Part shown: positions 19,154 through 36,594 of the stretch, piece after piece
Position numbering within the stretch: the stretch's first letter is position 1
Layout: each line of letters starts with the position of its first letter
Source: Acidimicrobiales bacterium
Lineage (GTDB): Bacteria > Actinomycetota > Acidimicrobiia > Acidimicrobiales > JAUJNH01
Assembly: GCA_030448245.1 (NCBI GenBank)
Contig: JAUJNH010000006.1
Span: forward strand, 15,788 to 79,787
DNA length: 64,000 nucleotides
Direction: 5' to 3'
Translations under genes and position numbers: made by a program
The notes under the pieces: model-generated
Databases searched by the model: none
What the model was told of the DNA's origin: nothing
What the model saw: the letters and a program-made list of their open reading frames with translations, nothing else

Positions 19154-19348
19154 GCTCGCCGGATGAGGCCTACGTCGTGCGCCGCCGGCTGCCGTGGCGG
19201 GTGGGCCTGCGGGGCACGGTGGGGCGTGGGTGTGATCGTGCTGGTGATCTCACCGGCGGGCGGCAACGGTGCACCAGGGTCTCAGGGCCATCGTCGAAGA
19301 CCCGGCTGATCCCTGCCCGTGGCTCCCGGGCTACGACGACCGATCGTC

Positions 19349-19402
19349 GGCTGGACCCTGGATCACCACCAGCTCGGCTGGACCCTGGATCACCACCAGC
19401 TG
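19349..19402. repeat. Perfect 27-bp tandem duplication (GGCTGGACCCTGGATCACCACCAGCTS x2)
   Basis: Direct reading of the intergenic region upstream of the 19532 lipoprotein. Confidence 0.7.
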
Positions 19403-24300: not shown

Positions 24301-24792
24301 CCTACCTCGCGATCGGCGAGAAGCCGCCCTTCCCACCCGGCGTGATCCGGACATGGTCGATCGACGAGGTAATGGAGGTCGACGGACTCCAAGACTCCAT
24401 CAGCATGTTCTTCCACGCCGGCCCACCGACGTGAGGACAGACAGCGTCATACCATCGCCGCCTCACGTCGCTCGGAGGTGGAGCCGACTCGAGAACGCTC
24501 GGGCTCGGCATTCCTGAAGGAGCGGGTTTTGTCAAGACCGTGTCGGCCGCCAGGCCGACTCCATCTCCATCTGGGCCCCCTTCCTCTTCGCGGGGTTGTC
24601 GTTGGGGGGTTCTCGCAGCAGAGTCCGCTTCAGCGGTGGCCTCGCCGAGCTCGGGGGCCTGTCATTCCTTCGTCACGCCCAAGGGTTGGGTGACATGCTG
24701 CGATCAGGCCACAACCGGTTGGGCTCAAGCACAAAGCCGGCCGCTTCGGGCCATGCCGATAATCGAGCTCGCAACCGGTTGCGCCGAGCCGG

Positions 24793-25020
24793 TCAGCCCG
24801 TCTCGGCCAGGCAACGGATCTCACCGTCGCGCAGGCCGTAGTAGACGAGCGTCAAGAGCTTCCGGGCGACGGCCACACGGGCCTTGGCCGTTCCCCTCCG
24901 CTGAGCGATCCGGTGGTAGTCGGCCCGCAGCTTCGGACCGCCCCGCCGGTTGCCGGACGCCTCGATCGCCGCCCACCGCACCAGTGGTGAGCCCTGCTTG
25001 GTGATCGACCCCCGGTGCAC
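24793..25020 (-). mobile_element. IS110-family transposase C-terminal fragment
   Basis: 75-aa ORF ending ...ARVAVARKLLTLVYYGLRDGE, characteristic IS110 transposase C-terminus; no upstream remainder detectable. Confidence 0.45.
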
Positions 25021-25454
25021 CGTCGTGTCCGACTCGTGATGCTTGGGGGTCAGGCCCGCCCACGAGCACAGCTGCCGAGGCCCCGGGAACTCGTGCTCCG
25101 CGGATCAGGTAGACCAAGCCTTCCGTGAAGCCGAGTACGGCACGTCCTGCTCGCTCGGTAACAGCGTAAGAACTGGCCTGGATGGACAGTTGACCTGTTG
25201 GCCTTCGGTCTTCCTGTTGTCCTCCTGGCCACGATGCTCGCATTGCGAGCTGGCAGGGACAAAGGTCGGGTCGCCACCGTGCACGCACCTTCGCAGCGAC
25301 GTCAAGTAGACGCTCCAGGCTCCCGATCGGGCGGACCCCTCGCCGAGGTTCATCGTCATCTTGAGGCTGCCGACACTGCCCGGTAGCGGCACCAGCCGGG
25401 CGCGAGGTAACGCACGACGGGATCTCGTGAGAGGACAGCGGGCTGGTTGGTGTC

Positions 25455-26387
25455 GTGAGCGGGGAGACTTCCCGTGTGAGCGTGGACACCCAGCCGATCG
25501 ATACCTGGTGTCGAGAGGTGCTGGGCGCGAGTGTCTCCGCGACCATCTTCTCAAGAGGACGCCTCGCACAGGTCATCGGGGTCCAGCTCGACGACGGCCG
25601 GAAGGTGGTGGTGAAGGTTCGGCCGGCATCTCCTCGCCTGGCTGCCGTCGTCTCTACGCAGCGTCACCTCCATCAGTCCGGGGTTCCCTGTCCCCGGCCG
25701 CTCGCCGGGCCGCTGCCCTTCCGCGGTCAGGCGATCACCGCAGACTCGTACGTACCCGCGGACCAGCTGCCTGGCGGGGTTCCACCAGCAGACGCCTGCG
25801 CCGAACTCCTCGCCGCCATCGTGGCCGCCGGACCGCCGGCCTCTGCCGTGGCGGAACTCAACCCGGCGCCACCATGGGTCGGTTGGGACCACCCTGGTGA
25901 CCAGACGTGGCCACCGCCTGACGATCTCGATGCCGACCTCAACCGCTCCGCAGCCAGCGACTGGCTTGACGCCGCGGCTCGCCGGGTCCGCCAGGCGCTC
26001 CTTGCGCACGCCTCGGCACCCGTCGTCGGTCACGTTGATTGGGAAGCGCACAACATGGGATGGGACGGCGAGAGCCCGATCGTGGTCTACGACTGGGACA
26101 GCCTGGCGATCCGAACCGAGCCCACGATCGTGGGGGCCGCGGCGACGGTCTTCGCCTCGACGACCGGTAGGACGGTCGCGGCATCCGTCAGCGACACAGC
26201 GACGTTCTTGGACAGCTACCAACGGCGACGCGAGCCGTTTCCAGCCGAGGACATGAAAGCTGCGTGGGCAGCAGGGCTGTGGACGCTGCTGTACAACGCG
26301 AAGAAGGAGACAGCCGGTGGGGGCGGCGGCTACCTGAAGCATCTCGAGGCTGAACTCGAGCAGCGGATGCGACTGGCCGGACTTTGA
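25455..26387 (+). CDS. Phosphotransferase-family protein (APH/choline-kinase-like)
   Basis: 310 aa; Brenner-type HxD region (VGHVDWEAHN) and DxD (YDWD) as in aminoglycoside phosphotransferase-like kinases. Confidence 0.55.
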   Translation: MSGETSRVSVDTQPIDTWCREVLGASVSATIFSRGRLAQVIGVQLDDGRKVVVKVRPASPRLAAVVSTQRHLHQSGVPCPRPLAGPLPFRGQAITADSYVPADQLPGGVPPADACAELLAAIVAAGPPASAVAELNPAPPWVGWDHPGDQTWPPPDDLDADLNRSAASDWLDAAARRVRQALLAHASAPVVGHVDWEAHNMGWDGESPIVVYDWDSLAIRTEPTIVGAAATVFASTTGRTVAASVSDTATFLDSYQRRREPFPAEDMKAAWAAGLWTLLYNAKKETAGGGGGYLKHLEAELEQRMRLAGL

Positions 26388-26549
26388 GCCGCCGCCGGAC
26401 CGGGACGAGGCTCTGGGGCGGCCTCAACAGCCGCGGGTGGGCCCAGAACGCCCAACCAGAACGCCTTCATGCAGCCCAGGCGTCGCCACCAGGGCGCCGA
26501 TCGGGCGCCGGGGTACCGCACGTCCCGAGGGCCCGGTAACGCTCGAGTC

Positions 26550-26945
26550 TCACCCCTCGTGTTCCCGACCTCGGCCTTCGTCGGCCGGGAGATCCACTTC
26601 GTGTCCGCAACCGTGGCAGAACATGCCGTCCGGGCCCCTCCACACCCGGTTCGTAGCGCAGTGCATGCACCTCAGGGAGGACTGCAGCGTCCCTCGGCAC
26701 GCAGTGCATCGACGTTCGAATCGGGATCCACCGGCGATCCGGGCCAGAGCCGCTCCGCAGAGGGGACATCGACGTGGGCGGCGTCGATCGGCTCTGCTCA
26801 GCACCCGGACAGATTGCCGCATGATCGAAGCGTCGCTCGTGGCACCCCACCCACGGATCGCGGGTCGGTGACGTCGGCACGTACGCGGTGATGGCCTCAA
26901 CCGTGGCACCGGACACCTCGACCAGTCACCGCTCGGGATCGGCAC
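26550..26945 (-). CDS. Possible small zinc-ribbon protein
   Basis: CPLCG...CTACRG...CMHCA...CHGCG cysteine pairs; weak coding signal. Confidence 0.2.
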   Translation of the reverse strand: MPIPSGDWSRCPVPRLRPSPRTCRRHRPAIRGWGATSDASIMRQSVRVLSRADRRRPRRCPLCGAALARIAGGSRFERRCTACRGTLQSSLRCMHCATNRVWRGPDGMFCHGCGHEVDLPADEGRGREHEG

Positions 26946-27625
26946 ATCCGTGCGATTGGTGACGAACAGGCGCTTGGTGTGTCTCGCAGCGCTCCTCGCA
27001 GGCCCGGCCCCCGATCCCGAGCTGAGGCACCTGGCATGAGCGCTCCCTAACGGCGGGCTGCCGAAGTGGTTCGGCCGGAATCTGACGCATTGTGGGGCAC
27101 GATCCAGACTGGCGCCACCTCAGAGGTCGTGGATGATCATCCCTTCCTCATCATCCGGGTCAGGTCGGAGGGTCTGTTCGCTCCCGGAGCTGACGGTGAG
27201 CGCTTCATCAGGACCACCCAACGACTGCGACAAGGCTGACGGCAGTCACCTCGTGGCCGTCGGCTCTGCCTGTGCCTCGAGCGTGGGGTTGAGGTCGAGC
27301 GCGCGACGGCGGGGAGCCGGGCGGCCAGCCCCGCGCACGGCGGAACGGGGTAGGCCTGGAAGAGGAGCCGGCGCCAGCGGGCGCCGGCCGCCTCGGCAGC
27401 GAACTGGGCGTGGCGCTCGGCCACCATCTGAGCGGTGAAGTTGGGGTGTCCGAGCATGGGCCATTGTTCGCACCCGAGGTAGGCACCCGCAATCGGTTAA
27501 GCGTCCGTCCGACGTCAGCCCGAGCCGCCGTGACCTGGTCACGACCAGCATCTGGCAGGCCAGGATCCGGGAGGCCTACCTGGAACAGCCCTCGTCGCCG
27601 CCTCGTCCTCGCGGCGCCGATCCGC

Positions 27626-33297: not shown

Positions 33298-33378
33298 CGG
33301 ATGACTGCGCCCACGCCTTTTGACGGTAGTGCTGCCTCTCCAGATCCGGTCAGGAAAGTCGCGGCGAGCGGGAGGCGC

Positions 33379-33987
33379 CTACCGCCCGACGTTGCGGAGG
33401 CCGGCCCAGGCCAGCTCGGCCAGGAGGTCGGCGATCTCGGCGGCCGAGGTGGTGGCCTCGCCGGCGGCCCGGGCCCGCAGCCAGTGGCGGCAGGTGGACT
33501 CGGCCATGCCGACGATGCCGTGGGCCAGGGTGAGGGTCTGCTCGGGCGGGAGCTCAGCCGTGATGAACGAGGCGATCAGCTCGGCGATGGCACCCTCGAC
33601 CAGCCGGACCCGATCGGCGAAGCCCTCGTCGCGCTTGCTGCCGCCGCCGAACAGCAGGCGGAAGGCGTCCTCGCGGTGCTCGACGAACCGGAAGTAGGCG
33701 CCGAAGCCGGCCTGGACCTGGCCGTGGGGGCCGTCGGCCTCGGCGGCCGCCTTGGCGATGGCGTCCATCAGCTGGCCGCCCACGTCGTCGAGCAGCTCGA
33801 CGTACAGCGCCCGCTTCGAGCCGAAGTGCTGGTACAGCACGGGCTTGGTGACGCCGGCCGCGGCCGCCACGTCGTCCATCGACGTGCCGTGGAACCCACC
33901 GGTCGAAAAGGCGGCGAGCGCGACGTCGAGCAGCTGCCGTCGACGCCGGGCGGCCGGCAGGCGGGGCGTGGGGTCGGGGGCGGCCAT
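33379..33987 (-). CDS. TetR-family transcriptional regulator
   Basis: 202 aa; TetR_N HTH (LLDVALAAFSTGGFHGTSMDDVAAAAGVTKPVLYQHFGSKRALY). Confidence 0.8.
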   Translation of the reverse strand: MAAPDPTPRLPAARRRRQLLDVALAAFSTGGFHGTSMDDVAAAAGVTKPVLYQHFGSKRALYVELLDDVGGQLMDAIAKAAAEADGPHGQVQAGFGAYFRFVEHREDAFRLLFGGGSKRDEGFADRVRLVEGAIAELIASFITAELPPEQTLTLAHGIVGMAESTCRHWLRARAAGEATTSAAEIADLLAELAWAGLRNVGR

Positions 33988-34247
33988 GACGCGTCTACTG
34001 CATGGTAACCACGCCATGTGGGGGTAACGGCCACCTCGTCCGTTTCGCCGCTTCTGCCCGGGATGCTCTCCTGGGCAGGAGGGGCGGCCGGCAGCGTCGA
34101 ACCCCTGGACGTGCGACCGAAGCACCAGACCCCCCGCCGGTTCACGACCCGGCCTCCCGAGCCGCCCCGCCCCGCCCCGGCGCAGCGGCCCGCCCTCTCC
34201 CTGATCGCCGTCCAGGCCCGCCGCCGCCGGCGCCGCCCCTTCCTCCT

Positions 34248-34469
34248 CTAGCCCACGGCCCGCTGGCGGTCCTCCCGGGCCGCGGCCTTGACCGCGTAGC
34301 CGAGGATGATCGAGGGGACCAGGCAGGCGGTGGCCACCGCGAAGCCGCCGACGACCACCGCCACCGACCACCCCGGCAGGTCGTTGAGGACGCCGACGAA
34401 AAAGGCGACGATGGCGACGAGCAGCGCCAGGTAGCCGACCCTCGACCCGAGCGACGCGAGCCGCCGCAT
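34248..34469 (-). CDS. Small two-TM membrane protein (73 aa, hypothetical)
   Basis: Internal segment of a spurious long ORF; clean GC3 usage, two hydrophobic helices. Confidence 0.35.
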   Translation of the reverse strand: MRRLASLGSRVGYLALLVAIVAFFVGVLNDLPGWSVAVVVGGFAVATACLVPSIILGYAVKAAAREDRQRAVG

Positions 34470-34501
34470 CCGCTCCCGCTGCACCAGCACCGGATCTCTG
34501 T

Positions 34502-34750
34502 TCCCCGCCGGTGCGTCGACGGCACCGCCTCGCTTGACTCGCTTCGCTCGCGCTATTTCCCGCCGGTGCGTCGGGACTCGCTTGACCCCTGTCTTCCCTC
34601 GTCGCTTCCCCCGCTCGCCTGGCGGCTCGCCTCCTCCGCTCCTCAGTCCAGACAGGGGCCGCTCGCCCCTCGCCGGCTCGCTCGCTTCGCTCGCGCGGCT
34701 TCCCGCCGGTGCGTCGGACGGCACCGCCGGCTCGCTCGCTTCGCTCGCGG
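34502..34750. repeat. Intergenic array of ~50-bp imperfect direct repeats (three copies; core CCCGCCGGTGCGTCG...GCTCGCTTCGCTCGCG)
   Basis: Copies at ~34502-34552, ~34555-34590 (partial) and ~34699-34749; read directly. Confidence 0.6.
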
Positions 34751-35785
34751 TCACAGGATGGTCTCGAGGAGGGTGGCGAGGCGATCCGGGAGGGCGTGCA
34801 CGTCGAAACAGTCGCGCACGATCCGCTCGTTGCGGTCGAGGACGGTCTGATCGGGGTGGTCCATGGCTCGCCGCAGGCCGGGCCCGTCGTCGACGGCCAG
34901 CCAGGCGAAGCCGTGGGTGCGCTCGAGGTGGGCGGCCACGGGGTAGCGGCGCACGGCCAGCGGCCGGCGGGCCGCCGCGGCCTCGAGGAGGGGCAGGCCG
35001 AAGCCCTCCCAGCTCGACGGCAGGACCACACCGTCGGCGGCGGCGTAGGCGTCGGCCATCGACAGGCCGTGCTGGTCGGCGCCCCGCAGCACCCGGGCGG
35101 GCGGGTCGGTCAGGATCGCCGCCAGCTCGGCGTCGAAGCCCTCCTCGACCGGGCCGGTCAGCCAGAAGGCGGCGCCGGCGGCGGCGGCCAGGGCCAGCCC
35201 TTCGCTCACCCCCTTGCGGGCAAGGGCCCGGGTGGGCTGGAGGAGGAGGCGCTCGTCTTCGGCCACCCCCATCACCTCCCTCGTCCGCCGGCGCCGGCCG
35301 CCGGCAGCCCAAACCGGGTCGATCCGCAGCGGCTCGACGGTGGCGGCGACGCCCCGCCCGGCCAGTGCCCGGGCCGCCAGGTCGTTGATCACGACATGGG
35401 CCCAGGCCCGGTCGTGGGGCGGTGTCCAGCCCGAGCCGGCGTAGCGCTCCCGCTCCCAGGGCAGGTCGTAGTGGTGCAGCACGGTGGGCCGGCCCCGACG
35501 GGCGGCGGCGACGGCGGCCGCCGCGGCCGGGTGCAGCGGCAGCGAGCACAGGTTCTCGACGACGACCACGTCACACCCCGCCAGGGCGTCGGCCACCTCG
35601 CCCGGCGCCGGCTCGGCCACCACAGGCCAGGCCAGGCCCGGCAGCACGACGTCGACCGGCCCGCGACCGGCCACCGTCCGCACCGACCACCCCAGCTGGC
35701 GCAGCGCCCACGCCCACTGGTCGGCGGCGACGCTCACGCCATCCGGCCCGCCCAGCCGGAACGAGACGAGCGCGGCGGTCGGCAC
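34751..35785 (-). CDS. Glycosyltransferase family 4 (GT1-type fold)
   Basis: 344 aa; C-terminal EGFGLPLLEAAA motif of retaining GT4 enzymes. Confidence 0.75.
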   Translation of the reverse strand: MPTAALVSFRLGGPDGVSVAADQWAWALRQLGWSVRTVAGRGPVDVVLPGLAWPVVAEPAPGEVADALAGCDVVVVENLCSLPLHPAAAAAVAAARRGRPTVLHHYDLPWERERYAGSGWTPPHDRAWAHVVINDLAARALAGRGVAATVEPLRIDPVWAAGGRRRRTREVMGVAEDERLLLQPTRALARKGVSEGLALAAAAGAAFWLTGPVEEGFDAELAAILTDPPARVLRGADQHGLSMADAYAAADGVVLPSSWEGFGLPLLEAAAARRPLAVRRYPVAAHLERTHGFAWLAVDDGPGLRRAMDHPDQTVLDRNERIVRDCFDVHALPDRLATLLETIL

Positions 35786-35811
35786 GGCCCCCGGGAACGT
35801 AGCGTGCGCCC

Positions 35812-36594
35812 ATGGGCGAGCCCGAGGTCCTCTACGGGGTCGACGGCCCGGTGGCGACGGCCACGCTGCACCGGCCCGAGCGCCGGAACGCCCTGACCTG
35901 GGCGATGCTCGCCCACCTGCGGGCCGTGCTGGCCCAGGCCAAGGCCGACCCCGACGTGCGCGTGCTGGTGCTCACCGGTGCGGGTGAGGCGGCCTTTTGC
36001 GCCGGGGCCGACCTGGAGGGGATGGCGGCCGGGGCCTCGCCGCTCGAGCTGCACGACGGCCGCGGGGCGCTGGCCCGGGTCTTCGAAGACCTCTGGTCGC
36101 TGGGCAAGCCGACCATCGCCAAGGTGCGGGGCCACTGCCTGGCCGGCGGGTTCGGGCTGGCCCTGTCGTGCGACCTCGTGCTGGCCGCCGCCGACGCCAC
36201 GTTCGCCACGCCCGAGGTCGACGTCGGCCTGTGGCCCTTCATGGCCAGCGTCCCGCTGTGCCGCTCGATGCCGCCGAAGAAGGCGCTGGAGCTGATGCTG
36301 ACCGGCCGGCGGGTGGGGGCCGCCGAGGCCGACCGCCTCGGCTTCGTCACCAGGGTGGTGCCGGCCGCCGACCTGGACGCGGCCACGACCGATCTGGCGG
36401 CGACGCTGGCGGCCAAGTCGCCCACGGCCGTCCGGCTCGGCCGCGACGCCTTCTACCGGGTGTGGGATGCCGGCGCCTCCGAGGCGCTCACTGCGCTGCA
36501 CCCGCTGCTCAGCGTCCTGGTCGAGACCGACGACGCCCGCGAAGGCCTGGCTGCCTTCGCCGAGCGGCGCCCGCCGCGCTTCACTGGTCGGTGA
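35812..36594 (+). CDS. Enoyl-CoA hydratase/isomerase (crotonase) family protein
   Basis: 260 aa; crotonase oxyanion-hole motifs (FCAGADL, GHCLAGGFGLALSCD). Confidence 0.8.
   Translation: MGEPEVLYGVDGPVATATLHRPERRNALTWAMLAHLRAVLAQAKADPDVRVLVLTGAGEAAFCAGADLEGMAAGASPLELHDGRGALARVFEDLWSLGKPTIAKVRGHCLAGGFGLALSCDLVLAAADATFATPEVDVGLWPFMASVPLCRSMPPKKALELMLTGRRVGAAEADRLGFVTRVVPAADLDAATTDLAATLAAKSPTAVRLGRDAFYRVWDAGASEALTALHPLLSVLVETDDAREGLAAFAERRPPRFTGR

What the first reader, a model, noticed from the sequence alone, without database searches (positions are those of the whole stretch)
34502..34750. Three ~50-bp direct repeats in the intergenic region between a GT4 gene and a small membrane protein/TetR unit
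The units are of the form TCCCGCCGGTGCGTCG(A/G)ACGGCACCGCC...GCTCGCTTCGCTCGCG, each containing the shorter motif CCGCCGGTGCGTCG. They lie on the operator side of a TetR-containing transcription unit (GT4 <- repeats <- small membrane protein <- TetR <- NfeD <- flotillin, all on the minus strand). Candidate array of regulator binding sites, REP-like element or minisatellite; a plus-strand ORF through it translates as a repetitive SLASLA artefact.
Basis: seen in the sequence. Interest (0 to 1): 0.5.

Follow-up and report, generated by a model that had tools for sequence, protein, structure and literature searches.

The report
Hairpin repeat array inside gene start
The repeats are real, but they are copies of a small hairpin-forming repeat element that has multiplied, in reading frame, at the very start of a small membrane-protein gene of an Acidimicrobiales bacterium; their number differs between near-identical genomes and a copy sits at an unrelated gene junction elsewhere, so they resemble the selfish MIRU and RPE repeats rather than regulator binding sites.

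Summary
The repeat tract at 34497-34749 is real and found nowhere else in the 64-kb window. It is not three ~50-bp units. It is two short units (54 and 55 nt) flanking one 143-nt long unit.

It is probably not intergenic. In 12 of 12 orthologous loci, a GTG overlapping the GT4 stop codon (GTGA) is in frame and stop-free with the small two-helix membrane protein. Tail length ranges from 11 to 95 codons. The repeats lie in this variable N-terminal tail.

A genome 99.8% identical nearby has one 54-nt unit fewer. A relative has at least 2.6 tandem long units. Most relatives have none, or only fragments.

The long unit folds on the sense strand into a hairpin: 25 pairs, 93% kept, 7 with compensatory changes. 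An ~85% identical copy lies between two unrelated genes in another metagenome contig.

Best reading: a MIRU/RPE-like, co-transcribed and probably translated repeat element, amplified by slippage. A TetR (FasR-like) operator array is not supported. The repeats are missing from most orthologues that keep the same TetR, and the TetR has its own conserved upstream region.

Genome-wide copy number could not be measured. Interest is moderate.

The parts
34751..35785 (-). GT4-type glycosyltransferase gene (344 aa). Its stop codon TGA lies at 34753-34751.
   Evidence: ORF. Pfam Glyco_trans_1_4 and Glycos_transf_1 above cut-off. 1020 homologues, mostly from Acidimicrobiales MAGs.
34248..34754 (-). Extended ORF of the small membrane protein (168 aa). 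Its GTG at 34754-34752 overlaps the GT4 stop (GTGA). It holds a 95-codon tail containing the repeats, then a two-helix core.
   Evidence: The same GTGA overlap is in frame and stop-free in 12 of 12 orthologous loci.
34695..34748 (-). Short unit C (54 nt): GCGAGCGAAGCGAGCGAGCCGGCGGTGCCGTCCGACGCACCGGCGGGAAGCCGC. It is absent from the near-identical genome L001.
   Evidence: The covariance model scores it as a long unit with its core deleted.
34552..34694 (-). Long unit B (143 nt). It has the same ends as the short units plus a ~96-nt purine-rich core.
   Evidence: Covariance-model match at 34557-34694, 146.9 bits.
34562..34677 (-). Sense-strand hairpin of the long unit (25 pairs in three helical segments). 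Its core stem is 34650-34658 paired with 34586-34594.
34497..34551 (-). Short unit A (55 nt). It carries +2 and -1 indels relative to unit C and to L001.
34467..34496 (-). Native tail codons D-P-V-L-V-Q-R-E-R plus the ATG at 34469-34467. They are conserved as protein with synonymous third-position changes.
34248..34466 (-). Two-helix membrane core of the small protein (RRLASLGSRVGYLALLVAIVAFFVGVLNDLPGWSVAVVVGGFAVATACLVPSIILGYAVKAAAREDRQRAVG).
   Evidence: No Pfam or NCBIfam family.
33379..33987 (-). TetR-family regulator (202 aa), FasR-like. It is context only and not part of the element.
   Evidence: Pfam TetR_N and TetR_C_46. NCBIfam FasR model matched full length at E 2.8e-34, below the equivalog cut-off.

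Best explanation
The tract is a tandem array of a small hairpin-forming repeat element. The element has a short form (54 nt) and a long form (135-144 nt). It sits in the 5' end of the small membrane-protein gene.

That gene starts at a GTG overlapping the GT4 stop codon (GTGA). It is therefore read by ribosomes that have just terminated on GT4. The repeats are co-transcribed with the operon and are most likely translated as a variable, low-complexity N-terminal tail. The tail is inferred to be cytoplasmic from the positive charges that flank the helices.

Units are gained and lost by slipped-strand mispairing or unequal recombination between units. Variants survive only if they keep the reading frame. 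The peptide sequence itself is not under selection. What is conserved is the nucleotide sequence and a sense-strand RNA hairpin.

The element also exists at an unrelated gene junction in another organism. It therefore behaves like the MIRU elements of mycobacteria and the RPE elements of Rickettsia: selfish or near-neutral DNA tolerated at gene junctions because it preserves frame and coupling.

Shown here: the repeats, the copy-number difference, the in-frame conservation, the hairpin covariation and the second locus. Inferred: translation of the tail, the slippage mechanism, mobility and neutrality.
For: - Repeats are real and local.
- Copy number varies. L001 (GCA_030447705.1) is 99.84% identical over 11 kb upstream, yet lacks one 54-nt unit and differs by four small indels within 250 nt.
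- L004 has a short unit followed by long units with periods of 144 and 135 nt. Its contig ends inside the array.
- L020 has a short plus a long unit, and the same allele appears in a second dataset (P0157).
- The frame is kept. In 12 of 12 loci the GT4 TGA is overlapped by a GTG in frame with the membrane core. Tails are 11, 11, 13, 16, 22, 24, 26, 31, 36, 77, 80 and 95 codons, with no stops.
- Unit lengths of 54, 135 and 144 nt are all multiples of three.
- The two frameshifting indel groups in the window cancel out (-1, then +2 and -1).
- Coding extends upstream of the ATG. Codons D-P-V-L-V-Q-R-E-R vary at the third position in 10 of 11 codons, mostly synonymously. In L005 and L012 the only start upstream of them is the overlapping GTG.
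- The hairpin has z-scores of -3.3, -2.8 and -3.5. 93.3% of cells are paired and 7 of 25 pairs show compensatory change, against about 40% paired and at most 2 such pairs when the partners are slid.
- RNAalifold gives the same fold.
- The sense strand folds at -66 kcal/mol against -42 for the antisense.
- Second locus: L022 carries an ~85% identical long unit between a MSMEG_4193-family phosphomutase gene and a TIGR03847 (DUF3090) gene. It adds 49 residues beyond the end of the family model.
Against: - GC at the third codon position is about 0.75 across the repeats, against 0.95-1.0 in the flanking genes.
- Substitutions within the element are not concentrated at third positions (14, 22 and 10 variable columns at positions 1, 2 and 3). 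There is no protein-level signature of coding inside the repeats.
- Open frames are cheap at 73% GC. Two of the three minus-strand frames and two plus-strand frames are open across the tract.
- An SD-like GGGAG precedes the ATG at 34469, and gene callers started the gene downstream in L001 (92 aa) and L006 (73 aa).
- Only one extra locus was found, in a different organism.
- No other copy exists in the 64-kb window or in about 100 kb of related loci.
- The small indels could be assembly errors.
Confidence: 0.6

Rival explanations
1. The tract is a non-coding intergenic minisatellite. In this lineage the small gene now starts at ATG 34469 or at an internal GTG. The repeats are untranslated spacer within the GT4-small gene transcript, and the open frame is incidental.
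For: There is no codon-position GC bias from 34470 to 34740. There is no third-position excess of substitutions within the element. GGGAG lies 5 nt upstream of the ATG. Gene callers chose downstream starts in L001 and L006. Open frames are frequent at this GC content.
Against: All 12 junctions, with 11 different tail lengths, are in frame with the GTGA start. All unit lengths are multiples of three. The window's frameshifts are compensated. The SD-like motif is not conserved (CGTGAGCGC in L002, CGCGAGCGC in L011 and L021). The codons upstream of the ATG evolve synonymously.
Confidence: 0.2
2. The long unit is primarily a cis-acting structured RNA. Its sense-strand hairpin in the operon mRNA would tune the stability, processing or translational coupling of the downstream gene. 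The element is kept for that function, and frame maintenance is secondary.
For: Stem covariation with G-U pairs and a strong sense-versus-antisense asymmetry. It lies in the sense orientation between co-directional genes at both loci. ERIC and Correia elements act in this way (PMC10969869).
Against: It is absent from most orthologous operons. One L004 copy has a degraded stem, with z +0.8. There is no Rfam family and no terminator-like tail. Covariation rests on six copies from four lineages, and the structure was derived from one of them.
Confidence: 0.15
3. The repeats are an operator array for the adjacent FasR-like TetR regulator, controlling the small gene/TetR unit.
For: The short units contain an imperfect dyad, GGTGC-N8-GCACC. 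A TetR gene lies about 500 nt downstream.
Against: The dyad exists only in the window and L001. The repeats are absent or fragmentary in 8 of 12 orthologous loci, and every contig long enough keeps the TetR. The tract lies in a conserved open frame with no promoter-like site. The TetR has its own conserved 260-nt upstream region, with a divergent small ORF and a conserved motif next to its ATG. A homologous unit lies at a locus with no TetR within the 2.5-kb contig.
Confidence: 0.03
4. The tract is an assembly artefact, produced by collapse or expansion of reads in a MAG.
For: The L004 contig breaks inside the array. Small indels differ between the window and L001.
Against: Homologous units occur in at least six independent assemblies from NCBI, ENA and JGI. 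The L020 allele is identical in two datasets.
Confidence: 0.02

Closest known systems
MIRU (mycobacterial interspersed repetitive units; Supply et al. 1997, as summarised in PMC3184786 and PMC12548453)
   Same: - The host is a high-GC actinobacterium.
- Units of 40-100 bp occur in tandem, with strain-to-strain copy-number variation.
- They lie between co-directional genes of a polycistronic operon, in the same orientation.
- They carry G+C-rich internal inverted repeats.
- An ORF through the unit overlaps the neighbouring gene by 4 nt, so that translational coupling is preserved.
   Different: - Here the unit ORF is fused in frame to the downstream gene rather than ending in a second 4-nt overlap.
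- There is also a 135-144-nt long form with a covarying hairpin.
- The host is Acidimicrobiia.
- Dispersal (40-50 loci for MIRU) is not shown; two loci are known, in different organisms.
- Sequence homology to MIRU was not tested.
RPE (Rickettsia palindromic elements; Ogata et al. 2000, as summarised in PMC10969869 and PMC3733652)
   Same: A palindromic element of about 105-150 bp is inserted in frame into protein-coding genes. It is translated as an extra peptide segment without destroying the protein. Here the long unit extends the N-terminus of one protein and the C-terminus of another.
   Different: RPEs are dispersed in tens of copies, are not tandemly amplified, end with a CGTC tag, and occur in AT-rich alphaproteobacteria. 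None of these features is shown here, and the CGTC end-tag is not met.
ERIC / Correia-type co-transcribed hairpin MITEs (PMC10969869)
   Same: An imperfect palindrome of 100-150 nt lies in transcribed regions between genes and folds as an RNA hairpin. Orientation matters.
   Different: No clear terminal inverted repeats or target-site duplication could be defined. No effect on RNase cleavage or stability is known here. Tandem amplification and frame maintenance are not typical of ERIC or Correia elements.
REP (GTAG- or CGTC-tagged repetitive extragenic palindromes; PMC3733652)
   Same: The short unit contains a G+C-rich stem-loop of about 28 nt and lies next to genes.
   Different: There is no GTAG or CGTC tag at an end of the palindrome. 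There are no head-to-head dimers. There is no high copy number in the 64 kb examined. The units are direct tandem repeats and in frame.

Membership tests
MIRU-like minisatellite | Tandem units of about 40-100 bp, with copy number varying between close strains | tested here: met
   Units are 54 and 55 nt. L001, at 99.8% identity nearby, has one unit fewer.
MIRU-like minisatellite | Located between co-directional genes of an operon, oriented like them | tested here: met
   The GT4-small gene junction and the phosphomutase-DUF3090 junction both carry the element in the sense orientation.
MIRU-like minisatellite | An ORF within the unit overlaps both the stop of the upstream gene and the start of the downstream gene (-4 nt coupling) | tested here: inconclusive
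   The upstream GTGA overlap is present in 12 of 12 loci. Downstream, the ORF is fused in frame to the gene instead of ending in a second overlap.
MIRU-like minisatellite | Dispersed at tens of loci per genome | not testable with these tools
   No other copy exists in the 64-kb window or in 19 loci. The genome collection does not appear to hold the source species, as the scan gave only two unrelated matches. The source contig could not be retrieved.
MIRU-like minisatellite | Sequence homology to mycobacterial MIRU consensus sequences | not tested
RPE-like in-frame palindromic element | Palindromic element of about 105-150 bp | tested here: met
   The long unit is 135-144 nt with a 25-pair hairpin.
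RPE-like in-frame palindromic element | Inserted in frame in protein-coding genes and read as part of the protein | tested here: inconclusive
   It is in frame and stop-free in all loci, and it is fused to the C-terminus of P0153 beyond the family model. Translation itself was not shown, and there is no codon-usage signal.
RPE-like in-frame palindromic element | CGTC tetranucleotide at one end of the palindrome (PMC3733652) | tested here: not met
   CGTC occurs only in the loop region of the short unit on the plus strand, not at an end of the palindrome.
REP | A 20-40 bp palindrome tagged with GTAG or CGTC, in high copy number, often as head-to-head dimers | tested here: not met
   There is no end tag. 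The units are head-to-tail. There are zero further copies in 64 kb.
MITE | Terminal inverted repeats and a target-site duplication | tested here: inconclusive
   The outer stem GCCGGCG/CGCACCGGC is only about 7 bp. No duplication could be defined when filled junctions (window, L001) were compared with empty ones (L005, L010, L012).
TetR operator array | Dyad-symmetric sites conserved upstream of the regulated gene in orthologous loci | tested here: not met
   The GGTGC-N8-GCACC dyad exists only in the window and L001. The repeats are absent or fragmentary in 8 of 12 loci.
TetR operator array | Specific binding by the regulator | not testable with these tools
   This needs EMSA or ChIP.
Known RNA families (Rfam 15) | A match to a curated covariance model | tested here: not met
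   There was no match at gathering score over the window, and none at E<=1 over 33900-34900.

The most novel reading that the evidence does not exclude
The 135-144-nt long unit is a previously undescribed mobile RNA module of Acidimicrobiia. It would be a sense-strand hairpin with a selected, covarying stem that spreads to junctions between co-directional genes. It would always preserve the reading frame, so that it is both translated as a disordered protein tail and active in the mRNA, for example in setting translational coupling, processing or stability. Its short form would be the hairpin with the core excised.
Probability: 0.25. Interest if true: 0.6.

Novelty: new member of a known kind. 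Interest (0 to 1): 0.4.

Why it matters
Three consequences follow if the reading is right.

1. The annotation changes. The 280-nt 'intergenic' gap is really the 5' part of a gene that is translationally coupled to GT4.
2. It would add Acidimicrobiia, a poorly studied and mostly uncultured class, to the few lineages known to carry frame-preserving repeat elements at gene junctions (MIRU in mycobacteria, RPE in Rickettsia). It would also offer a hypervariable marker for strain typing in metagenomes.
3. The covarying sense-strand hairpin gives a concrete, testable case of nucleotide- or RNA-level selection acting on a sequence that is also translated.

It does not reveal a new regulatory system. 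The adjacent FasR-like regulator is probably unrelated to the repeats.

Tried and rejected
- **Rfam.** No match at gathering score over the whole window, or at E<=1 over 33900-34900.
- **Promoter and terminator scan, 33300-36000.** Nothing found.
- **Whole-tract RNA fold.** Only weakly better than shuffles on the minus strand (z -1.75) and worse on the plus strand (z +1.89). The signal lies in the long unit alone.
- **Genome-contig scan** with GCGAGCGAGCCGGCGN{5,35}GCACCGGCGGG. It gave only two unrelated matches, in a Chloroflexota and a Panacagrimonas MAG, with no further similarity.
- **Viral-contig scan** with a conserved 23-mer. One chance match in a 53% GC contig.
- **Plasmid collection, distant mode.** No match.
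- **Peptide-profile search** of the element against 5.8 billion proteins. No hit, not even the known positives, so the search is uninformative.
- **Exact look-ups** of the window's GT4 and of its identical database twin P0158. Not on record, so the 259-kb source contig could not be read.
- **Void calls.** (protein 2) and one search used 34470 instead of 34469 as the ATG. Both are void.
- **CRISPR.** Rejected: the repeats are head-to-tail with no spacers.
- **Terminator.** Rejected: there is no T-run.
- **Plus-strand ORFs.** Rejected: there is no codon bias and no conservation.

Full report
**Observation**

- The 14-mer CCGCCGGTGCGTCG occurs exactly at 34505, 34560 and 34703. Every other window match needs two mismatches, and their number equals chance.
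- The 16-mer GCTCGCTTCGCTCGCG occurs at 34680 and 34734 exactly and at 34537 with one mismatch, against 0.33 expected.
- The repeat finder gives families spaced 55/143 and 143/54 nt.

The tract is therefore real and confined to this spot in the 64-kb window. Its anatomy differs from 'three ~50-bp units'. Read in the direction of the genes (minus strand):
- Short unit C, 34748 to 34695, 54 nt.
- Long unit B, 34694 to 34552, 143 nt.
- Short unit A, 34551 to 34497, 55 nt.

B shares only its two ends with the short units. Its core is a ~96-nt purine-rich sequence with a 9-bp inverted repeat.

**Surroundings**

All the genes are on the minus strand.
- The GT4-type glycosyltransferase runs from 35785 to 34751, with its stop TGA at 34753-34751.
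- The small protein has a two-helix hydrophobic core that ends at 34248.
- A TetR regulator runs from 33987 to 33379. It carries TetR_N and TetR_C_46 and matches the NCBIfam FasR model full length, below the equivalog cut-off.
- GT4 homologues place the window in Acidimicrobiales MAGs.
- The window's GT4 is identical to a protein from a 259,400-nt NCBI contig. That contig could not be fetched.

**Comparison with relatives**

I retrieved the junction from 11 other loci by exact protein look-up and one metagenome scan. Three results follow.

1. *The array is hypervariable.*
   - L001 (GCA_030447705.1) is 99.84% identical to the window over the 11 kb upstream, with a single indel. Within the 250-nt tract it lacks exactly one 54-nt unit and differs by four small indels.
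   - L004 (GT4 79% identical) has one short unit followed by long units with periods of 144 and 135 nt. Its contig ends in the third long unit.
   - L020 has a short plus a long unit. The same allele occurs in a second dataset.
   - L002, L011 and L021 keep only fragments: the 3' 33 nt, or the 5' 'GAGCGAAGCGAGCGAGCC'. L003, L005, L006, L010, L012 and L013 have none.

2. *The tract is very probably not intergenic.*
   - In 12 of 12 loci the GT4 stop is overlapped by a GTG (GTGA). That GTG is in frame with, and connected without a stop to, the membrane core.
   - The distance to the conserved Met is 11, 11, 13, 16, 22, 24, 26, 31, 36, 77, 80 and 95 codons.
   - Eleven different lengths that are all multiples of three are not expected for a spacer. 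The expectation is about (1/3)^9 for nine or more independent length changes (inference).
   - The nine codons before the Met (D-P-V-L-V-Q-R-E-R) are conserved as protein. Third positions vary in 10 of 11 codons, for example CGG/CGT/CGC/CGA/AGG for Arg.
   - The SD-like GGGAG before the ATG is not conserved.
   - In L005 and L012 the only start codon upstream of these codons is the overlapping GTG.
   - The family's start is therefore the GTGA overlap, the classical arrangement for translational coupling (PMC12548453). The repeats lie between that start and the native tail.
   - Unit lengths of 54, 135 and 144 nt are multiples of three. The window's -1 indel at 34612 is compensated by +2 and -1 at 34537/34531/34517.

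3. *The evidence for translation is limited to frame maintenance.*
   - Third-position GC is about 0.75 in the tract, against 0.95-1.0 in the neighbouring genes.
   - Substitutions between element copies fall on codon positions 1, 2 and 3 as 14, 22 and 10 columns. Most codon differences are non-synonymous.
   - The compensated frameshift turns 32 residues of the window's tail from acidic to basic, and the same shifted frame is read in L022.
   - The peptide is therefore not under selection. Only length and frame are.
   - Open frames are also cheap at 73% GC.

**The long unit is a hairpin**

- On the sense strand it folds into a long imperfect hairpin. The z-scores are -3.3, -2.8 and -3.5 for three of four copies, and one L004 copy is degraded.
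- I took six copies from four lineages and applied the 25-pair structure derived from the window copy. 93.3% of cells pair and 7 pairs show changes on both sides. No shuffle out of 500 reaches these values. Slid controls give 28-43% paired and at most 2 such pairs.
- RNAalifold predicts the same fold independently.
- The structure uses G-U pairs and is strand-specific: -66 against -42 kcal/mol in the window, with a similar gap in three other copies.
- The covariance model aligns short units as long units with the core deleted. The short form is thus the outer stem closed on a short loop.
- Caveats: the sample is small, the structure came from one member, and template-switch or conversion mechanisms can mimic selection.

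**A second locus**

- An exhaustive HMMER search of 1.84 billion representative proteins with the window's 85-residue tail gave one meaningful hit, P0153 (E 2e-6).
- P0153 is a MSMEG_4193-family phosphomutase. Its last 49 residues lie beyond the end of the family model.
- Its contig is L022, from JGI sample 3300017787. It carries an ~85% identical, full-length long unit (131.8 bits with the model) between that gene and a TIGR03847/DUF3090 gene, its usual neighbour. The unit is in the sense orientation and begins with the same GTGAGCGAAGCGA as the GT4 junctions of L011 and L021.
- The element therefore exists at an unrelated junction, which argues for dispersal or copying.
- How many copies one genome holds could not be determined. 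There are none elsewhere in the window or in about 100 kb of related loci, and the collection scans were uninformative.

**The operator hypothesis**

- The short unit's dyad (GGTGC-N8-GCACC) is present only in the window and L001.
- The repeats are missing or fragmentary in eight orthologous loci, and every contig long enough keeps the same TetR.
- The tract lies inside a conserved frame without promoter-like sites.
- The TetR has its own highly conserved upstream region of about 260 nt.
- I regard this reading as very unlikely, though binding was not testable.

**Mechanism proposed**

Shown:
- A frame-preserving, hairpin-forming repeat with short and long forms.
- Tandem amplification and copy-number polymorphism.
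- A second locus.

Inferred:
- The units are co-transcribed with GT4 and the small gene.
- They are translated from the coupled GTG as a disordered tail, taken to be cytoplasmic from the positive charges that flank both helices.
- They expand and contract by slippage or unequal recombination.
- They persist because variants that keep the frame and the coupling are harmless.
- The hairpin is conserved either for the element's own propagation or for an RNA-level effect.

**Comparison with known elements**

- *MIRUs* are the closest functional analogue. They are 40-100-bp tandem units found in high-GC actinobacteria, in operon junctions and with the same orientation. They have G+C-rich internal inverted repeats and an ORF that overlaps the neighbouring gene by 4 nt, preserving coupling (PMC3184786, PMC12548453).
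- *RPEs* are the closest analogue for the long unit. They are palindromes of about 105-150 bp inserted in frame in genes (PMC10969869).
- *Membership* in either family is not claimed. Dispersal per genome is untested, homology to MIRU is untested, the CGTC end tag of RPE/REP (PMC3733652) is not met, and the downstream end is a fusion rather than a second overlap.
- I found no description of such an element in Acidimicrobiia in the paper library.

**Verdict**

The tract is a new member of a known kind: frame-preserving junction repeats. The 'minisatellite/REP-like' option is broadly right, and 'TetR binding sites' and 'intergenic' are probably wrong. Interest is 0.4. It would rise if the hairpin module proves dispersed and functional.

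Noticed in passing
window 34111-34251 (+): A conserved small ORF that no gene caller reported lies in the supposedly non-coding gap between the small membrane gene and the TetR gene. It reads (V/M)(R/G)PKHQTPRRFTTRPPEPPRPAPAQRPALSLIAVQARRRRRRPFLL*, about 46 aa. It is conserved in L001, L002, L003, L005 and L006, mostly through synonymous changes, and its third-position GC is about 1.0. Its stop overlaps the stop of the small membrane gene (CTAG), and it is divergent from the TetR. There is no Pfam, NCBIfam or PDB match.
   Followed up: partly
window 33995-34013 (minus-strand sense: CGTGGTTACCATGCAGTAG): A nearly invariant motif lies immediately upstream of the FasR-like TetR start codon in all five aligned loci. 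It sits within the 123-nt divergent region between the TetR and the small conserved ORF. This is a more plausible place for the regulator's own operator or promoter than the repeats.
   Followed up: no
window about 24470-27250: This stretch has lower GC (0.64-0.70 against about 0.75) and few long ORFs. Here the window and the otherwise 98-99.8% identical L001 differ by well over 100 small indels and mismatches. L001 has almost no called genes there. It may be a decaying or hypervariable region.
   Followed up: partly
L004 4032-4427 (ENA ERZ1300029 k137_661929): The contig ends inside the third long unit of the array. The true unit number in that organism is therefore unknown, and the repeat evidently breaks short-read assemblies.
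   Followed up: yes
L006 4881-5530 and L007 2093-2736: In this relative the FasR-like TetR gene is called as two ORFs (102 and 118 aa). The cause is either a frameshift or pseudogene, or a sequencing error shared by an NCBI MAG and a Logan assembly.
   Followed up: no
window 19347-19401: A perfect 27-nt tandem duplication (TCGGCTGGACCCTGGATCACCACCAGC, 2.0 copies, 100% match) gave the highest Tandem Repeats Finder score in the window. Its length is a multiple of three.
   Followed up: no
L013 736-829: In this more distant orthologue, the native junction sequence GTGAGCGATCC lies 60 nt downstream of a second GTGA that overlaps the GT4 stop. It looks as if the junction itself had been duplicated in frame. 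This is an independent way in which the tail has grown.
   Followed up: partly
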